A stretch of 64,000 bases of DNA, from positions 3,313,881 to 3,377,880 of the forward strand of contig NC_057758.1 in NCBI RefSeq assembly GCF_004010195.1, written 5' to 3'. Of this stretch, positions 1 through 42,994 are shown one piece after another. Positions within the stretch are counted from its first letter, which is position 1, and each line of letters starts with the position of its first letter. Origin of the DNA: Chiloscyllium plagiosum (taxonomy: Eukaryota). The notes beneath the pieces are model-generated. The model was not told the origin of the DNA, ran no database searches, and saw nothing but the letters and a program-made list of their open reading frames with translations. Position numbers and translations under genes: made by a program.

Positions 1-34
1 CATACTTAGGGATCATTCTATAATCCTGGCATTC

Positions 35-345
35 ATAGTCCTTAGTTAGACCATACCTGGAGATCTGCACACTCTTTGGGACTTCGCATCCCTTGGTTGA
101 CTGCATTTGCAGCACTGTTCCAGTTTTGATATCGCTAATTTCGAATATACCTGGAGCACTGTACGTAGTTTTGGTCTCCATAGATCACAGTTGCAGCATT
201 TTGAACAGTTTTACTCTGTGTATCCCTCAGCCAGACAACGCCCGGAGCACTGTGTACAGTTCTGGTCTCTAAAATCCTCAGTTGGAACACACTTGCACCA
301 TTAAATGGAGTTCTGGTCTATGTATTCTTCAGTTAGAACTCACCA
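35..345 (+). repeat. Degenerate tandem array (~45-50 bp unit) derived from the CR1 RT segment encoding LVRPHLEYCVQFWSP
   Basis: About six consecutive units resembling CTTAGTTAGACCA-C-TGGAGCACTGTGTACAGTTCTGGTCTC, e.g. 226-270 and 140-181; compare the intact CR1 motif at 28022-28065. Confidence 0.6.
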
Positions 346-11289: not shown

Positions 11290-11600
11290 TCTTTGTATGA
11301 GAGTGTCACTGTGCAGTCGTACATTCATCACCGAGTTCATGTGTGTTTCTGCAGACGTTTCGCTAGGTGAAATCATCAGTGCACCTCTGCGAATTGTTTC
11401 TGGTTTGTCTCGAATGGTATTTATGCGTTTGTGTTTTCTGTAACTTCTAGGTCTGTATCTGATTGGCTTGTACATTAGGTAGTGTTCAATACATTTATCG
11501 ATTCAGTTCTCGTTGGGGTGCCAGGCTTCAATGAATTCTGATGGGTGAGTCTATTTTGCCCGCAGTAGGATCTTACATTGTGCCATTTGAATTTGTGTCT
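11290..11600 (-). mobile_element. Penelope/Poseidon-like element 3' fragment (GIY-YIG C-terminus plus hammerhead remnant)
   Basis: Minus strand encodes HTDNERHKFKWHNV... followed by TGCA-CTGATGA-TTTCACCTAGC-GAAACGTC-TGCA at 11383-11350. Confidence 0.65.
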
Positions 11601-20000: not shown

Positions 20001-21957
20001 CATTAACATCATTGAAATGTGATCAGAATGAAAAACTCTGTGTTGTGGAATCAAGTTATCCCTGTGCCTGAATCGCAAATGGGGGCAGGAAAAGTAAGCA
20101 ATTGGGAAAAAAACATAGAACATAAAACAGTACGGCACAGGAACAGGCCATCCAGCCCACGATATAGTGCTGAAATAGGACACCAAATTAAACCAATCCC
20201 TTCTACCTGCCACTGGTCCAAAGTCTTCTATTCTTGCATGTTCATGTGCTTATGTAAACGTGCCTGCCTTGTTCCTACTTATTTGCCTCCACCAGGACCC
20301 TGGAAGCACGTCCCACACTCCTACAGCTCTCTGCGTAAATAAACGTGTCCCCCTCAAATCTGCTTGAAACTTTCCGCCTCTCATCTTATGCTTCCCCCAA
20401 TTTTAAACATTTCAACTCTGGGATAAATTGCTGACTATCAGCCATCTCTAAGCATTTTATAGCTTTCTGGACTTTTCTCGTCTCCCCTCAGCCTGCACCG
20501 GTCAGAGAAAACAACGCAAGTGGGTTTTTTTTGCATCTCCTTAAAGCTCATTTCCTCAAATCCAGGCAGCTTCCTGGTAAACTTTTTCTGTCCCCTTTCC
20601 AAAGCGTCCACATCATCCCTGTTATGTGGTGACTAGAAAGGTAGAATGTTCAGCATTTATTTTGAGGGAAACTTAACTCAAAAGTGTGGAGGCTACATCC
20701 TAGTTATACAAAGCACTGGAAAAATCACAGTATTGGCAGTTTGGCTGCTGACGAAATGTTAGTCAGAATAGGCTTGTTCCCGTTGGAGTTTTGAAAAGTT
20801 TTAAAACATAGAACTCCGAAAGATAAGTGTCAGTGTGCGCACTCAAAGCATGTTCCCTCATCCTATCATCAAAGCGGGGAGGTCAGCCTTGTTTAAAACA
20901 GACGTTCAGCAGACCTTGCCATGAGCAGGAACAAGCATATCGAGGAAAGGCAAGTACAGACTTGATGAAGAGACACCGATCCTGAATTCGTGACCCTAAC
21001 AGCGCCAGTAGCTTGTGGTTGACAGAGTTGAAGTATCCTCAAAGCAACAGTTGAGATTTAGGACATGCAAGTGTAAATGATGGCAGATAATTTAACTTGG
21101 AACTGAGGGATGGAGCTTGACAAATGTCACAATATGACGGAGCCCTTGCACATGGTGAAAGAAAAAATCTGAGTATGCGTAGATGTTTTCAGCTCGAGGT
21201 TTCTCGTGCCGATGTCATCTTGGCCTCCTGTCAGTCCACATGATACACATCAGCAATCTATCCCAGCTTCGGCGATGATTGCACAGGTTGCAGGAACCAG
21301 CTGCACCACTAGTGGTGCTGTTTCAATATATCAAAAGCACTGGCATTGATGTTCCTGTCTTCTCACATCCCGCCAGTCTGTTTTTGATCGTCAGCTAAGT
21401 GTTGGTAAATTGCCGTCAATGACACGCTCGCGGAGGCCCAGTCGGTGTTCCCCTTGGGCCATTAACACACATAACGTCAGGACAAACCTTATAGGATCTC
21501 AGCAGATTGGCAACATTTGTAGACAGAGAGGAAATCAGAGATAAAGTTTCATCTAAGTGCTATGGTGTGTCCTTAGACTATCACCAACACTTCCCCCACC
21601 CGATCTCAAGTTCTAGACGCCACCGTTCATTGCAAACATCCTTCTTATATGTACCCTGTACAGTCTTTTTCCGGCTCCAGCATGATTCTTCTTTAGGGCA
21701 GCACTTTTGGAAACTGAAGTATGGTTCACATTTCAAATCCAGAATGGTGTAAATATCCACAAGGATTCTGGCTGGCACAACTTTCTGTAACAAGGAATTC
21801 CAAAACACACAAACTTCGAGAGAAGCAAAACATTCCCATTTCAGTCTTTCATGGGTGTCCCTTAATTCCAAGACTGTGCTCCTCTATACATTGTCAAATG
21901 GTATGTGTGCTCTGCAACTCATGTATAATTTTCAGGTTTTGTTGCTCTTTCTCACAG

Positions 21958-22859
21958 TTAACATAATGGCGATTGCAATCCTCTCACGGGATCAATGTGG
22001 TCTATCCAAATGTGTTACCCAGTATCTGGTGTACATGGCAGTGGCGGATCTACTGGTCAACATTTTTGACCTGATTCTGAGGCATATTCCAATTGTTTAC
22101 GTGAAAGAATTTCAGTTTGTGAAGTCCCTCCCTCTTTGCAACATCCACACCGTTCTTGTCCATGCAGCCACGGACTGTTCTGTCTGGTTCACTGTTGCTT
22201 TCACCTTTGATCGATTTGTGGCCATCTGTTGCCAGAAACTGAAACGTAAATATTGCACGGAGAAAATTGCATCTGTCATTTTGGGAATAGTGACAATACT
22301 GAGCTGTTTAAAGAATATTTTTTGGTATTTTATGTTAACAGGTCAGTATCAGCTAAAGAACTTCCCTTGGTTTTGTGAGTTAAGATCGGGTCTTATATTA
22401 TCTAAATTCTGGGGAATAGTCGAAATCAGTCATCATCTTCTCACACCATGTTTGGCAATTCTTTTTACTGTTCTGTTCAATGCTTTATGTGTCAGACATC
22501 TCTTAATGGCCAACAGAGTCCGTGGGAGACTCCAGGCACTCAGCAGCAGGAACAACATCACAGAGCCAAAAATGGAGAATCGAAGAAAATCCCTAATTTT
22601 ACTGTTTTTCATCTCGGCCAACTTTGTACTGTCATGGGCAATCATTATGCTGTATTCAATATGGAACCGGGCGTGGCTATTGGGTCACAAGTTCATATTT
22701 CTGCATTATTTTGTGCGGGAAATTGGTTACATCTGCCAACTCACAAGTTACTGCACAAATATTTGTATTTATGCTGGGACATTGACCAAGTTCAGGAATC
22801 AGGTGATGGATGCATTCAAATATCCAATTCATCTGTTACTAAAATTGATTAATCAATGA
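21958..22859 (+). CDS. Coding exon 2 of the GPR139/GPR142-like GPCR (TM1 end to TM7 and C-terminus); spliced product 360 aa
   Basis: Polypyrimidine tract and CTCACAG acceptor ending at 21957. Open frame with TM2 MAVADLL, TM3 Cys (PLCN), SVWFTVAFTFDRFVAIC (DRF), ECL2 WFC, TM6 RRKSLILLFFISANFVLSW, TM7 CTNICIY and helix 8 KFRNQV. Stop TGA ends at 22859. Confidence 0.92.
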
Positions 22860-24672
22860 ATAACTGTTCAAAACAGAGAAACCATTTCCAAGTCAAGATC
22901 AGTGCAATTCACTTTCCCATGGTTTCAGAAAGAGAGACAAGATAAAGTTCATGAACGTACACTGGCAGGTGATATGCATGCATAATGGGGTCGGTCTATC
23001 TTCTTCCGGGTTCAGTGATAAACATACAGTGGCCTAAGTCTGTTCTCTCCTCTGGCTCAGTGTGATATGAACGGGGGAAAGGAGTCAGACAGGTGTCTCC
23101 CTGGGATCAGTGATGCGCACAGATTGAGTTCTCTCCACTTTTGTATCATTTTCAGTGACACACACACGTGGCTATCAGTACGTCTCTCAGCAGGGTCAGT
23201 AATACAAACGCAGGCGAGTTTGTGTGTAATCGCCCCGGGGTCCATCAGTTCACAGTGGGGTCCATCAGTTCACTCCCCGAGGTCAGTGATACACACACAG
23301 GGGTGTCTGCTGTCTTTCCCCGGGGACAGTGATACATATATAGTCGCGTCAGTCTGCATTTGTACCGGGCTCAGTGACACACATACAGTGGGATCATTGC
23401 TCTCCCCAGAGTCAGTGATATGCAGACATTGGCGTAAGTTTGCTCCCTCCGGGGTCGGTGAAACTGGTGTCAGCCTACAGTCTTCACTGGGGTCAGTCTG
23501 CTCTCTCACCGGGATCAATGATACACACACATTGAGGTCAGTTTGCTCCCTCTGCAAGGTCAGGAATGCACACGCCAAGGGGTCAGTGAGCTCTGACTGT
23601 TAATGATACGCTCACAGTTTGGTCATTCTGCTGCATTCCAGCTCTCAGTACTAAACACTCAGTGGGGTCAGTCTGCTCTGTGTCAGAGCCATTGGTACGC
23701 ACAGAGTGGGTCATTCTGCAGTGTCAAGGGCGCAAACATTTGGATCAGGGCAGAGATGATGAAGGGTTCCCACCCGAAACGTCGATTTTCCTGCTCCTCG
23801 GATGTGCCCGACCTGCTGTGCTTTTCCAGCATTACTCTAATCTTGACACATTAGGATCCGTCTGCTCTATTCCCACGGTCAGTGATGCACACATACAGAG
23901 GGTTCAATATGATCTCTCCTACGGGTCATTGTTGCACAACAGTATTTCTGCTGTCGCCCGGGCTGAGGGATAATACACCATAAGGTCAGTGTGCTCTCCC
24001 GAGAGTCAACAATACACACACAGTGGGGTCAATATACTCTCACCCCAGAGTCAGTGACACACACAAAAACAATGAAGTAAGTTCGCTCTCTCCTGCGGAT
24101 CAGTAATACACATATAGTGACATCATTGGGGAATTATCCCGGTGTCAGTAATGCTGATACACAGTGGGGTGAGTCTGCTTTACTTCCACGGTCAGGGATA
24201 AACATGCAATAGGATCAGCCTTCCCATCTCCCCAGATTCAGTGATAAATACAGAGCGGGGCAGTCTGGTCTCCCCACGGGTTCAGTGATATATACAGAGT
24301 GGAAAATATGTTGCTGGAAAAGCGCAGCAGGTCAGGCAGCATCCAGGGAACAGGAGAATCGACGTTTCGGGTATAAGCCCTTCTTCGATGATGTTCTGTC
24401 GATGGAGTCAGTGATATGTACCTATTGGGCTCAGACTGGTCTCTCTCTCTCTCTCTCTCTCTCTCTAAGTTTAGTGACATGCGCAGTGGGGTCCAGCATC
24501 TGCAGACCTCACTTTCTCCTCCTATATACAGAGTGGGCTGAGTCCGCACTCTCCCCAGCATCGGTAATCACACACAGTGTGGTCATTAGGCTTTCTCCTC
24601 GAGATCAGTGATGCACAAACAGTGGTATTATTCTGTTGTTCCCGAGGTCAATGATCTCTACACACACTGGAG

Positions 24673-24876
24673 GAGAAAGTGAGGTCTGCAGATGCTGGAG
24701 ATCAAAGTTGAAACTTTATTGCTGGAACAGCACAGCAGGTCAGGCAGCATCCAGGGAACAGGAGATTCGACGTTTCGGGCACAGGCCGAAGAAGGGCCTG
24801 TGCCCGAAACGTCGAATCTCCTGTTCCCTGGATGCTGCCTGACCTGCTGTGCTGTTCCAGCAATAAAGTTTCAACT
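24673..24876. mobile_element. Fold-back PLE derivative with perfect 82-bp inverted repeat and 15-bp TSD
   Basis: Arms 24706-24787 and 24795-24876 are exact reverse complements around the loop GAAGAAG. CTACACACACTGGAG at 24658-24672 and 24875-24889. Confidence 0.9.
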
Positions 24877-24904
24877 ACACACACTGGAGTCAACCTACCC
24901 TTAT

Positions 24905-25068
24905 GAGAAAGTGAGGACTGCAGATGCTGGAGATCAGAGCTGACAATGTGTTGCTGGAAAAGCGCAGCAGGTCAAGCAGCATGCAAGGAGCAGGAGAATC
25001 AACATTTTGGGCATGAGTCCTTCTTCAGGGATGATTCCTGAAGAAGAGCTCATGCCCGAAACGTCGAT
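24905..25068. mobile_element. Second fold-back PLE derivative with 15-bp TSD, directly adjacent to the first
   Basis: TCAACCTACCCTTAT at 24890-24904 and 25069-25083; hammerhead core CTGAAGAAGAGCTCATGCCCGAAACGTC from 25038. Confidence 0.85.
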
Positions 25069-25164
25069 TCAACCTACCCTTATCCAGGATCAGTGATGCA
25101 TGCACAATGGGGTGAGTTTGCTCTCTCGCCGAGTTCAACATGCACATATTGTGTATGTTGACCT

Positions 25165-34270: not shown

Positions 34271-34887
34271 GTCTGTTGTGCTAACCATCACCCTCTGAAA
34301 AGAAAAGGCTCTCACTGTCCACCTTATCTAACCCTCTGCTTAATGATATGTCCTAATTAAGACCTCTCAATCTTCTTCTCTGACGAAACCAGCCTCAAGT
34401 CCCTCAACCTTTCCTCATAAAACCTTTCCTCCATACCAGACAACATCCTTGGAAATCTCATCTGAACGCTTTCCAAAGCTCGCATATTCTTCCTGTAGTG
34501 CTGTGATCAGGACTGTACATAATTCTCCAATTGAGCTGCACCAGAGTTTTGTACAACTGCAGCATGACACCATGGTTCCAAAACACAATTCCCCTACCAA
34601 TAAAAGCTATCAACCCTTAATTTAACAACCCTATCAACCTGGGTGACAACTTTCAGAGATCTGTCCACGTGGACACCGAGATAGTTCTGCTCATCCACAC
34701 GAACAAGATTCTTGCCATTACCCCGGTACTCTGCATTCCTGTTACTCCTTCCAAAAGGGATCACCTCACACTTTTGTGCATTAAACTCCATTTGCCACCT
34801 CTCAGCACAGCCCTGCAGCTTATCTATGTCCCTCTGTAACCAGCAACATCCTTCGGCTCTATCCACAACTTCACCATAAATTTCCTA

Positions 34888-35011
34888 GTAAAAACAATGA
34901 CTGCAGATGCTGGAAACTAGATTCTGGACTAGACGTGCTGGAAAAACACAGCATTTCAGGCAGCATCCTCGGATGCTGCCTGAACTGCTGCGCTTTTCCA
35001 GCACCTCTAAT
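34888..35011. mobile_element. Small fold-back PLE derivative with 14-bp TSD
   Basis: CCATAAATTTCCTA at 34874-34887 and 35012-35025; inverted arms centred on GCAGCATCC-TC-GGATGCTGC. Confidence 0.8.
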
Positions 35012-35591
35012 CCATAAATTTCCTAACCCATCCTTCTATGCTCTCATCCAGATCATTTTAATAAATGACAAACAATTGTTGATCCAAAGCAGATCCTTGT
35101 GATACATCACTAGCAACTGAACTCCAGGATGAATATTTCCTATCAACTACCACCCATTGTCTTCTTTCAGCTGGCCAATCTCTGATCCAAACCACTAAAT
35201 CACCCTCAATCGCATGCCTCAGTAGTTTGTGCAATAGCCTCCCGTGGTGAACCTTAAAAAACGCCTTACTGAAATCCATATACACCACATCAACCACGTT
35301 ACCCACATCCACCTGTCTGGTCACCTTCTCAAAGAACTCAATAGGTTTTGCGAGGCACGACCTACCCTTCACAAAATCGTGTTGACTATCCCTAACCAAC
35401 TTATTCCTTTCCAGATCATTATGAATTCTTTCTCTTATAACCTTTTCCAACACTTGACCCACAACTGAAGGAAGGCTCACAGGTCTAGAATTTCCAGGGT
35501 TGTATCTACTCCCCTGCTTGAACAACAGAAAAAAGTTTGCTATCCTTCAGTCTACTGATACTTTTCCTGTCAACAGTGACGACATAAAGAT

Positions 35592-37255
35592 CCCGAATGG
35601 ATTACGGATCACAAACCCACTTAGGTCGACCTACAACACAGACTACGCAGAGAGACTTTGCCACCGCACCTCTCGTAAACTTCTCAATCATCTCGTGCAC
35701 CAACTCTACAGCAGGCCAAAAACTGGAGACGCTGGGCATTCTCACCAATAATAGCAAAGCCCGCCCTGGAACCACAGTAGACAACATTATCACTGTGGGG
35801 AAGTCTATTGTCAACTTATCGGACCACACCCTTCGACCGGAAGAGATTGAAGTCCTGAGTAGGGGTCTCAACTTCTGCCCCACCACCAAAATGGGCCCGT
35901 TGGATCTGGCAGCAGTCAGAGGAGTTCATCAGATGTATGAGACTCCGGGAATTCTTTCAAGGTGCCGGCATTGATCCCACTGATGAACTAGAACAGTCAT
36001 CACAGGGATCTGTAGAGGAGCGACCAAAGAAGGTGTCAACATGGACCCCACCGGAGGGCCGGAGTTCATCAGACGAATGAGACTCCGGGAATTCTTTCAA
36101 AGTGCCAGCAGTGATCCCACTGAGTCCACTGATGAACTAGAACAGTCATCACAGGAATCTGTAGAGGAGCGACCAAAGAAGGTGTCAACATGGACCCCAC
36201 CGGAAGGCCGCTGCCCTGGGCTTGACATGTATGCTCAAACTGTCAGGAAATATATAAATGCCAGATTCATCAGCCACACCCACAAGGTAGAGCAAAACAT
36301 CACCCGTTCACAACGCAATGCCATCCAGGCTCTCAAAACCAATGACAACATTGTCATCAAACCAGCAGATAAAGGAGGAGCCATTGTCATTCAGAATAGA
36401 ACAGATTACTGCAGGTAAGTGTACTGACAACTGAACAGCCAGGAACACTACAGGCAACTACCAGCTGATCCGACCAGAGAACACACCCATGAATTAAACA
36501 CACTGATCAGAACTTTGGATCCAATCCTTCAGAGTTCCCTACGCGCCCTCATCCGAAACTCAGCACCCGCGGGCCAGTCGAACCGGGAACGTTCCTCGTC
36601 ACAATGGATGTTTCCGCACTCTACACCAGCATCCCCCACAATGATGGCATCGCGGCAACTGCCAGTCTCCAAACACCATCCTATAACTCATCCGCTTTAT
36701 CCTCGATCATAATGTCTTCACCTTTGACAACCAATTCTTCATCCAGACACACGGAACAATCATGGGGACCAAATTTGCACCCCAATATGCCAACATTTTT
36801 ATGCACAGGTTCGAACAAGATTTCTTCTCTATGCAGGATCTCCAACCGACATTGTACACCAGGTACATTGATGACATTTTCTTCCTCTGGACCCATGGCG
36901 AGGAGTCACTGATAAAACTACACAGTGACATCAACAATTTTCATCCCACCATCAAACTCACCATGGACTACTCTCGACTGTCTGTCTCATTCTTGGACAC
37001 GTGCGTCTCCCTCAAGGACGGACACCTCAGCACCACACTCTACCGCAAACCCACAGACAACCTCACAATGCTACACTTCTCCATCTTCCACCCAAAACAT
37101 ATTAAAACAGCCATTCCCTATGGACAAGCCCTACGCATACACCAGAAACAAAAAAAAACACAATCACCTGATGAAGGAGCATCGCTCCGAAAGCTAGTGT
37201 GCTTCCAATTAAACCTGTTGGACTATAACCTGGTGTTGTGTGATTTTTAACTCTT
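35592..37255 (+). mobile_element. Penelope-like retroelement, internally deleted (RT pseudogene plus hammerhead-bearing tail)
   Basis: PLE motifs IVNLSD...VLSRGLNFCP, IVIKPADKGGAIVI, MDVSALYTSIPH, GTKFAPQYANIFM, YTRYIDDIFFLW, FLD, LYRKPTD; frameshifts; tail with hammerhead at 37165-37199. Confidence 0.92.
37165..37199 (+). ncRNA. Minimal type I hammerhead ribozyme motif, AGCU family, intact core
   Basis: CAC-CTGATGA-A-GGAGC-ATC-GCTCC-GAAAG-CTA-GTG: helix I CAC/GTG, helix II GGAGC/GCTCC, palindromic AGCT helix III, predicted cleavage after CUA. Confidence 0.7.
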
Positions 37256-41878: not shown

Positions 41879-42539
41879 TGGGAGGGGCGTGGATCGTATA
41901 AATAGACAAAGTCTTTTTCCTGGGTGGGGATGTCCAGAATTAGAGAGGGCAGTTTACAATGAGGGGGGAAAAATCTCAAGGGGACCATTTGTGCGTCATG
42001 CCCAATCCGATTGGCCATCTCAGTTTCTCCATCAACATGTGCAACGCCACCACCGCCTGCCTGATTGTGACGGTGTAGGTGCAGTAATAGACCAACCTAT
42101 CCAAATCTTATATCCGGTTGGCCCACCCCCGTGTCAGTCAACCATATTGACCCGCTTTGCTATTGGTCTCTGTATCCTTCCATCAGCGTTCCCCGCCCAT
42201 CCCATTCATTCAATCGCTGGCTCTCATGTCAATCAAAAATGTGCATCAACTACCCGATGAATGGGCACCACTGTGAAAGCTAGTGCTTCCAAATAAACCT
42301 TTGGACTGTAACCTGGTCTTGTGTAGTTTTTGAACTTTGTCCATTACAAAGTTATGCCCCGCCCCCATTTCCAAATTGCACCGCTACAGTATCCATCTGC
42401 AATGCTGCAATTGTACAAAACTCTGGTGCAGCCACATTTGGTGTATTGCATACAGTTCTGGTCACCACACTATAAGGATGTGGAAGCTTTGGAAAGAGTT
42501 CAGAGCAGATTTACTGGGATGTTGCCTGATATGAAGGGG

Positions 42540-42744
42540 AGCTGAAAATGTGTTGCTGGAAAAACGCAGCAGGTCAGGCAGCATCCAAGGAACAGGAGAA
42601 TCGACGTTTTGGGCATAAGCCCTTCTTCAGGCTTATGCCCGAAACGTCGATTCTCCTGTTCCTTGGATGCTGCCTGACCTGCTGCGCTTTTCCAGCAACA
42701 CATTTTTAGCTCTGATCTCCAGCATCTTCAGTCCTCACTTTCTC
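42540..42744. mobile_element. Fold-back PLE derivative inserted in a CR1 fragment, with ~16-19 bp TSD
   Basis: Near-perfect arms 42540-42621 and 42630-42711; CCTGATATGAAGGGGAGCT at 42525-42543 and 42744-42762. Confidence 0.85.
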
Positions 42745-42994
42745 CTGATATGAAGGGGAGCTCTCATGAGGAAAGGCTGAGGGACTTGAGGCTGTTTTCA
42801 TTAAAAAGAAGGTTAAGACACTACTTAATTGAGACAAATAAGATAATCAGAGCCTTAGCTAGGGTGGACTATGAGAGCCTTTTTTCCACAGATGGTGATG
42901 GCTGGCACGAAGGAATATAGCTTTAAATTTTGGGATGATAGATATAGGACAGGTTTCAGAGGTCATTTCTTTACTCAGAGTGGTAAGGGCATGG

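What the first reader, a model, noticed from the sequence alone, without database searches (positions are those of the whole stretch)
24658..24889. Perfect 82-bp fold-back insertion whose turn lies inside the ribozyme core
Seen: a zero-mismatch 82-bp inverted repeat with a 7-nt loop GAAGAAG (the remains of CUGAAGAAG) and a perfect 15-bp TSD, so the insertion is recent. The turn is also at the hammerhead in the copies at 42622-42629 and ~25028-25034, and about 20 nt downstream of it at ~34969. Inference: these MITE-looking hairpins are PLE retrotransposition products in which fold-back or template switching occurs at the ribozyme-defined RNA end. That would be a ribozyme-guided route to genomic palindromes and possible hairpin-RNA sources.
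Basis: partly seen in the sequence, partly recalled or inferred. Interest (0 to 1): 0.7.

Follow-up and report, generated by a model that had tools for sequence, protein, structure and literature searches.

The report
Twin-primed Penelope palindrome at transcript start
This perfect 82-base hairpin is real and is one of many short head-to-head insertions of a Penelope-type jumping gene; it was likely made by copying the start of the element's RNA from both cut DNA strands and joining the copies, so the turn likely marks the RNA's start, not a ribozyme cut.

Summary
The 82-bp inverted repeat, GAAGAAG loop and 15-bp TSD are confirmed. The long arm is identical to the hammerhead-bearing pLTR behind an RT + GIY-YIG ORF of a Neptune-type Penelope-like element (PLE), with at least 10,509 matches genome-wide.

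In 81 unselected copies the outer ends are fixed at two element positions (+129-131 and +94/95). The inner ends pile up at +1 to +14 and drop sharply upstream of +1, the first base of the hammerhead. They do not pile up at the predicted cleavage site (+32/33; 2 of 129 ends). Junctions are heterogeneous (41 types in 48), and an extra G often precedes +1.

Each arm often holds sequence the other lacks, which simple fold-back cannot give. Best reading: both 3' ends of a staggered cut prime cDNA at the two known PLE start sites, both cDNAs run to a likely capped RNA start, and microhomology joining fuses them. In this copy a short snap-back on ribozyme stem II likely helped.

The architecture is published. 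I did not find the mechanism in print, but this scan has reached the same twin-priming reading in this genome and others.

The parts
24658..24672 (.). Left target-site duplication (15 bp); its last 3 nt also match element +129..+131 (priming microhomology)
24670..24705 (-). One-sided PLE tail (element +96..+131), present only on the long arm; lies between the two fixed outer ends
   Evidence: tail concept from PMC11167929 and PMC8557442
24670..24787 (-). Long arm, element +14..+131 (RNA sense on the minus strand); identical to the 3' pLTR of ORF-bearing copy L201; inferred cDNA primed from the top-strand 3' end
   Evidence: 119 of 119 positions, the last one by chance
24788..24794 (+). Loop GAAGAAG, element +7..+13: hammerhead core lacking C3-U4; present only in the short arm's sense
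   Evidence: this exact junction occurs 116 times genome-wide
24788..24876 (+). Short arm, element +7..+95; inferred cDNA primed from the bottom-strand 3' end at the internal +94/95 site
24794..24813 (+). Hammerhead stem II (GGGC-CUGU-GCCC), GAAA and palindromic stem III up to C17; cleavage would fall at 24813/24814 in an intact copy; predicted dead here
   Evidence: sequence; fold of the intact L201 copy; min-HHR description in PMC4209133
24875..24889 (.). Right target-site duplication (15 bp); its first 2 nt also match element +94/+95
24890..25083 (.). Adjacent older-subfamily head-to-head copy with its own 15-bp TSD; turn at +1 with an extra G
42525..42762 (.). Older-subfamily head-to-head copy, turn in the hammerhead 5' half, 19-bp direct repeat
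34874..35025 (.). Divergent head-to-head copy, turn near +48-50, 14-bp TSD

Best explanation
This is a 5'-truncated head-to-head insertion of a Neptune-type Penelope-like retrotransposon, likely formed by twin target-primed reverse transcription. SHOWN: the arms match the element's pLTR; outer ends are fixed at +129-131 and +94/95; inner ends stop at or just inside +1; TSDs are mostly 13-17 bp; junctions vary. INFERRED: (1) the GIY-YIG endonuclease makes a staggered cut about 14-15 nt apart; (2) each 3' end pairs by 2-3 nt with the RNA and primes RT, one at about +130 and the other at +94; (3) both cDNAs run only 95-130 nt to the RNA's 5' end, a likely capped Pol II start at an Inr-like TC[A]TTCC that is also the first base of hammerhead stem I; (4) the two cDNA ends are trimmed and fused by microhomology-mediated end joining. 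In this copy the long-arm cDNA likely folded briefly on the stem II region (TTTCGG..CC), added GAA, and used it to anneal to the other cDNA. The ribozyme sits at the turn because it occupies the first 36 nt of the RNA and offers a hairpin, not because it cleaves.
For: PLE link: RT + Cys-linker + GIY-YIG ORF followed by the same pLTR. Fixed outer ends: 71 of 81 long arms at +129..131; 33 of 48 short arms at +93..96. Single-arm copies end at either site too. Boundary at +1: long arm 46 ends in +1..+14 against 9 in -14..-1 (p=4e-7), short arm 36 against 6 (p=3e-6); 2 of 129 ends at +31..35 against 50 of 129 at -2..+3. Genome-wide 2,259 starts at +1, 925 at -1, 129 at +33, 38 at control +41. The short arm reaches further 5' than the long arm in 32 of 48 (16 by 10 nt or more) but lacks the tail. 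G precedes +1 in 18 of 33 non-inverted copies (p=7e-4), and in 14 of 21 where the TSD does not explain it; L275 has it on both arms; contigs of run X15 show a joint with one G before +1. Snap-back series at stem II of 3-13 nt before switching (L003, L008, L012, L011, L115, L116). In vitro, a PLE extends both strands, starts internally at two sites that bound the tail, and does not need HHR cleavage (PMC11167929).
Against: No RNA 5'-end data: the RNA run showed no start sites. No full-length copy with 5' pLTR contiguous to the ORF was recovered, so priming in the transcript's 5' pLTR is inferred. The G excess is partly ambiguous: 5 of the 14 end in ATG and could be templated from the antisense -1 base, and the sample skipped GGAATTCC hits. 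Rare variants are mirrored in both arms, which fold-back also predicts. L019 and L061 have pure fold-back-shaped junctions. This copy's junction recurs 116 times with the tail on the same side in 18 of 19 informative copies, which needs an order or asymmetry that I only infer. 4,368 matches extend past -17, so many cDNAs come from longer templates.
Confidence: 0.7

Rival explanations
1. A single cDNA folds back on itself (self-priming) and copies itself, and the palindrome centre is later revised asymmetrically. This is the first reader's fold-back, akin to the self-priming proposed for rotifer PLEs.
For: Junctions of L019 and L061 have pure fold-back form at stem II. Rare variants are mirrored, including an 8-nt deletion. 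Self-priming is proposed in PMC3846280 (passages).
Against: The short arm extends beyond the long arm's inner end in 32 of 48, by up to about 70 nt, yet lacks the tail. The short arm ends at +94/95 with microhomology to the TSD, the same end as single-arm copies.
Confidence: 0.11
2. Twin priming as in the best explanation, but the cDNAs stop because RT stalls on leaving the folded or protein-bound hammerhead in a longer RNA, not at a transcript start.
For: The boundary coincides exactly with the 5' edge of stem I; there is a secondary stop at +13/14 (stem II edge); no TSS data.
Against: Excess G before +1 and an Inr-like sequence. Stem I is only 4 bp and the predicted fold is weak (-7.2 kcal/mol). 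A stall would be expected at the 3' side of the structure, where few ends lie.
Confidence: 0.11
3. The palindromic unit is itself a propagating non-autonomous element (MITE-like or retroposed master copy).
For: 116 identical junctions with a fixed tail side in 18 of 19.
Against: That junction is about 1% of the tail matches (116 against 10,509); 41 junction types in 48 copies; TSD sequence and length vary; there is a continuum up to ORF-bearing copies.
Confidence: 0.05
4. Hammerhead self-cleavage creates the RNA 5' end at which the turn forms.
For: 129 matches start at +33 against 38 at control +41, so a small cleaved fraction is not excluded.
Against: The turn in this and most copies lies 5' of the cleavage site, in sequence a cleaved RNA would lack; 8 of 12 inspected +33 hits are microhomology joins; PMC11167929 found cleavage unnecessary in vitro.
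Confidence: 0.03

Closest known systems
EN+ Penelope-like elements, Neptune clade: inverted 5'-truncated pLTR, one-sided tail, TSD (PMC8557442 passages and Fig. 2 legend; PMC3846280 passages)
   Same: RT + Cys linker + C-terminal GIY-YIG; hammerhead in the pLTR; head-to-head inverted copy; 36-nt tail on one side; TSD.
   Different: Here both arms are minimal (no ORF), and the copy number makes ends countable: two fixed outer ends and a fixed inner boundary at +1. PMC3846280 explains the palindromes by self-priming on an antisense template, and PMC8557442 calls the cause undefined.
Poseidon PAc of Anolis in vitro (PMC11167929, parts 1-2 of 4 read)
   Same: Cuts and extends both strands; RT starts internally at two adjacent sites that bound the tail; HHR cleavage not needed.
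   Different: In the parts read, it does not describe joining two cDNAs into a head-to-head insertion or a 5' boundary at the hammerhead start; different clade; it reports initiation without homology, whereas 2-3 nt microhomology is seen here.
L1 twin priming (PMC11702581 passages, citing Ostertag and Kazazian 2001)
   Same: Both target ends prime RT; discrete 12-18 bp TSDs; end-joined inner junction; extra G from the cap at full-length 5' ends.
   Different: In L1 the two cDNAs copy adjacent, nearly non-overlapping parts of the RNA, giving an inversion. Here both copy the same 5' segment, giving a perfect palindrome.
Minimal type I hammerheads of metazoan PLEs (PMC4209133, parts 1-2 of 4 read)
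   Same: Short helix I, extra base between positions 9 and 10.1, palindromic minimal helix III; dual motifs on opposite strands were already noted in Schistosoma.
   Different: This copy lacks C3-U4 and is buried in an 82-bp hairpin, so it is predicted inactive.
Synthesis-dependent MMEJ (PMC5728401, abstract only)
   Same: Hairpins within about 30 nt of a break prime short synthesis that creates new microhomology.
   Different: Here the ends are inferred cDNA flaps; the polymerase is not identified.

Membership tests
EN+ Penelope-like element | Single ORF with RT and C-terminal GIY-YIG endonuclease linked to this terminus | tested here: met
   L201 and L199: RVT_1 over cut-off (E 1e-8, 3e-7); GIY-YIG E 3e-4, about 1 bit under cut-off; pLTR behind the L201 ORF is identical to the arm
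EN+ Penelope-like element | Hammerhead motif in the pLTR | tested here: met
   Core, stem II and stem I read from the sequence and folded; Rfam gave no hammerhead hit; activity not tested
EN+ Penelope-like element | Inverted 5'-truncated copy with a 30-40 nt one-sided tail | tested here: met
   36-nt tail; 48 of 81 copies inverted
EN+ Penelope-like element | Partial tandem (pLTR-ORF-pLTR) full-length copy | tested here: inconclusive
   Short tandems of the pLTR seen (L114, L150); no complete unit recovered, assembly gaps
Neptune clade | Zn-finger-like Cys motif between RT and EN | tested here: met
   C-x4-C-x2-C before the GIY-YIG; criterion from PMC8557442, which gives the same feature for Nematis
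Neptune clade | RT phylogeny groups with Neptune rather than Nematis | not tested
   no tree built; no named reference sequences at hand
MITE (cut-and-paste) | Fixed structure with terminal inverted repeats and a short constant TSD | tested here: not met
   41 junction types in 48; TSD mostly 13-17 bp with variable sequence; unequal ends
Non-LTR retrozyme | Tandem head-to-tail units each with a complete HHR | tested here: not met
   This copy is head-to-head with a broken core; 224-bp tandems of the same pLTR occur elsewhere (L114, L150). Definition from 10.64898/2026.07.22.740005, part 1 of 5 read

The most novel reading that the evidence does not exclude
PLE integration is intrinsically two-ended: a dimer primes both target strands at two dedicated sites of one RNA, and the capped transcript begins exactly at the first base of the hammerhead. 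The inverted pLTR, the one-sided tail and thousands of perfect genomic hairpins would then be a single outcome, with ribozyme stem II steering a fraction of the joins by snap-back.
Probability: 0.55. Interest if true: 0.62.

Novelty: new member of a known kind. Interest (0 to 1): 0.42.

Why it matters
How PLEs make their inverted ends and tail is described as unresolved (PMC8557442). Thousands of young copies give a countable record: two priming sites, a stagger of about 14-15 nt, a sharp 5' boundary and repair-type junctions. These are direct predictions for the existing in vitro system. The data also argue that the hammerhead is not cleaved in the RNA that gets inserted. The locus itself is an ordinary by-product, and no host function is shown.

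Tried and rejected
Rfam found no hammerhead. A DNA search with the tail region alone returned nothing, the words being too common. An RVT_1 family search of the genome was uninformative.

No RNA holder was listed on record. Laying single-cell polyA run X20 gave 510 reads on both strands and no start or end sites; X21 and X1 gave none. Presence/absence could not be tested: four contig runs did not cover the flank.

A second hammerhead PLE family gave only 11 copies in 0.99 Mb, too few to test whether the +1 boundary is general. A splice acceptor at +1 was rejected (no AG at -2/-1). Cleavage at +1 in another register was rejected (stems I and III cannot form).

Literature searches: (PLE structure and mechanism) gave no paper with the twin-priming model for PLEs in the listings or in the passages I read; most listed papers were seen as listings only. 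Searches were for the cap G and SD-MMEJ. Subscription papers are not searched and I read no supplements; Fig. S2 of PMC11167929 may bear on the ends.

Full report
OBSERVATION. The window has a perfect 82-bp inverted repeat (24706-24787 / 24795-24876) with loop GAAGAAG and an exact 15-bp direct repeat (24658-24672 / 24875-24889). The next-longest perfect palindrome is 15 bp. Related copies lie at about 23773, 24300, 24492, 24905, 34900, 38478, 42540 and 43548. The genome is 3.56 Gb; that it is a shark is recalled from the repeat's look and from earlier notes, not tested.

WHAT THE ARMS ARE. A 32-mer spanning the tail junction has 10,509 exact matches. Copies extending upstream lead into a Cys-linker plus GIY-YIG ORF end. 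L201 and L199 carry 749- and 674-aa open frames with RVT_1 over the cut-off and GIY-YIG about 1 bit under it. The long arm is identical to the pLTR behind the L201 ORF. This is an EN+ Penelope-like element, Neptune-type by its linker; no tree was built.

COORDINATES. I number from +1, the A of TC[A]TTCCTGAAGAAG. It is the first base of hammerhead stem I (AUUC pairs with GAAU) and fits the Inr consensus YYANWYY (recalled). By standard numbering (recalled, consistent with PMC4209133) cleavage would be at +32/+33. This copy is a long arm +131 to +14 followed by a short arm +7 to +95.

BREAKPOINT MAP. I took 99 of the first 100 places listed, which were chosen without regard to the junction. I dropped 18 whose match ran past +133 (tandem units or slightly longer ends), leaving 81 (automated parsing, a few rows misparsed).

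Long arms end at +129..131 in 71 of 81. Of the 81, 48 are head-to-head, and their short arms end at +93..96 in 33. The script found a direct repeat in 55 of 81, of 13-17 bp in 43; a few of the rest are chance. Among long-arm inner ends between -3 and +80, 52 of 69 fall in -3..+14 (p=2e-22). There is a boundary at +1: 46 against 9 for long arms and 36 against 6 for short arms in equal 14-nt windows. Only 2 of 129 ends lie at +31..35, against 50 at -2..+3.

Genome-wide exact counts agree: 2,259 matches with a non-native base before +1 (by hand tally of the first 100, 89 are A or G), 925 starting at -1, 129 at +33 and 38 at control +41. Eight of 12 inspected +33 hits have 2-5 nt microhomology to the other arm. 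4,368 matches run past -17, so longer templates also contribute. The turn therefore clusters on the ribozyme's 5' half, in sequence that a self-cleaved RNA would have lost.

TWO cDNAs RATHER THAN ONE FOLD-BACK. The short arm reaches further 5' than the long arm in 32 of 48, equal in 4, less in 12, yet it lacks the tail. In this copy the loop exists only in the short arm's sense and the tail only in the long arm. Single-arm copies end at either +94/95 or about +130, so both are priming sites in their own right. Both outer ends share 2-3 nt with the TSD. This matches the in vitro finding that a PLE cuts and extends both strands and starts RT at two internal sites bounding the tail, without needing cleavage (PMC11167929, parts 1-2 read).

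Against this: in 91 young pairs 60 had no variant, 5 variants were mirrored (including an 8-nt deletion) and 31 were private, many at CpG. In 13 older pairs both arms shared the subfamily changes. That points to one source RNA or locus, and fold-back predicts it too.

THE JUNCTION. There are 41 junction types in 48 copies, with 0-3 nt microhomology or short inserts. A graded series ends the long arm at stem II and adds 3-13 nt copied from its own upstream strand before switching to the other arm (L011, L012, L003, L008, L115, L116). L019 and L061 never visibly switch. This copy is the shortest member of the series, and its junction occurs 116 times, with the tail on the GGCC side in 18 of 19 informative copies of 20 fetched. 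The asymmetry suggests an order of events that I cannot establish.

WHY +1. Of 38 script-classed non-inverted copies starting at +1 with a non-native preceding base, I dropped 5 as misclassified. Of the 33 left, 18 have G, 8 A and 7 T (p=7e-4 against 0.27), and 14 of 21 have G where the TSD does not supply the base. L275 shows it on both arms, and contigs of run X15 hold a joint with a single G before +1. An extra G marks reverse-transcribed caps in full-length L1 insertions (PMC11702581, passage). Caveats: 5 of the 14 could be templated, the sample skipped GGAATTCC hits already held, and no RNA start data were obtained. PLE promoters lie in the pLTR in Drosophila virilis (PMC2377424, passages), but there the start is 46 bp upstream of an intron rather than at the hammerhead edge. 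No full-length unit was recovered.

COMPARISON AND VERDICT. Inverted truncated pLTR, one-sided tail, TSD and hammerhead are all published PLE features (PMC8557442 and PMC3846280, passages; PMC4209133, parts 1-2). The locus is a new member of a known kind, predicted to be catalytically dead and to fold as a -185 kcal/mol hairpin if transcribed; no function is shown. I did not find the twin-priming and transcript-start reading in print. Earlier unchecked notes of this scan reached the same twin-priming reading in this genome and others; my reading was recorded before I saw them, and they are not independent evidence. Interest 0.42: ordinary as a locus, useful as a testable record of an unresolved transposition mechanism.

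Noticed in passing
window 21753-22856 (+): Intact 368-aa single-frame rhodopsin-family GPCR ORF (7tm_1, E 1.7e-11), about 1.8 kb upstream of the insertion.
   Followed up: partly
window 24240-25085: Four insertions or fragments of this PLE family within 850 bp; the TSD of the next copy begins at the base after this copy's TSD. Two fragments at about 24300 and 24492 share a 14-bp direct repeat (24289 / 24523) around a (TC)n tract, perhaps one interrupted insertion.
   Followed up: partly
L114 and L150 (G000:C1 about 16.163 Mb and 26.522 Mb): Head-to-tail 224-bp tandem units of the same pLTR, each with a complete hammerhead, resembling non-LTR retrozymes derived from this PLE.
   Followed up: no
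window 15538, 37168, 48427 (+), 9833 (-); RT remnant 35987-37247: A second hammerhead-bearing PLE family (CTGATGAAGGAGC..GAAAGCTAG); L160 and L200 show head-to-head turns just 5' of its core. A third motif lies at 11379 (-).
   Followed up: partly
L043, L053, L147: Three independent loci share an identical upstream junction (-72 to -145): a second recurrent join in longer copies.
   Followed up: no
The 116 matches of this junction split 71 forward to 45 reverse, an unexplained strand imbalance, possibly from assembly.
   Followed up: no
L216, L222, L223, L230, L266, L271, L277, L282: Single-arm copies starting at +1 often have shortened TSDs (8-12 bp) whose target continues with AT, matching the element's first bases: microhomology capture of the cDNA end.
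   Followed up: partly
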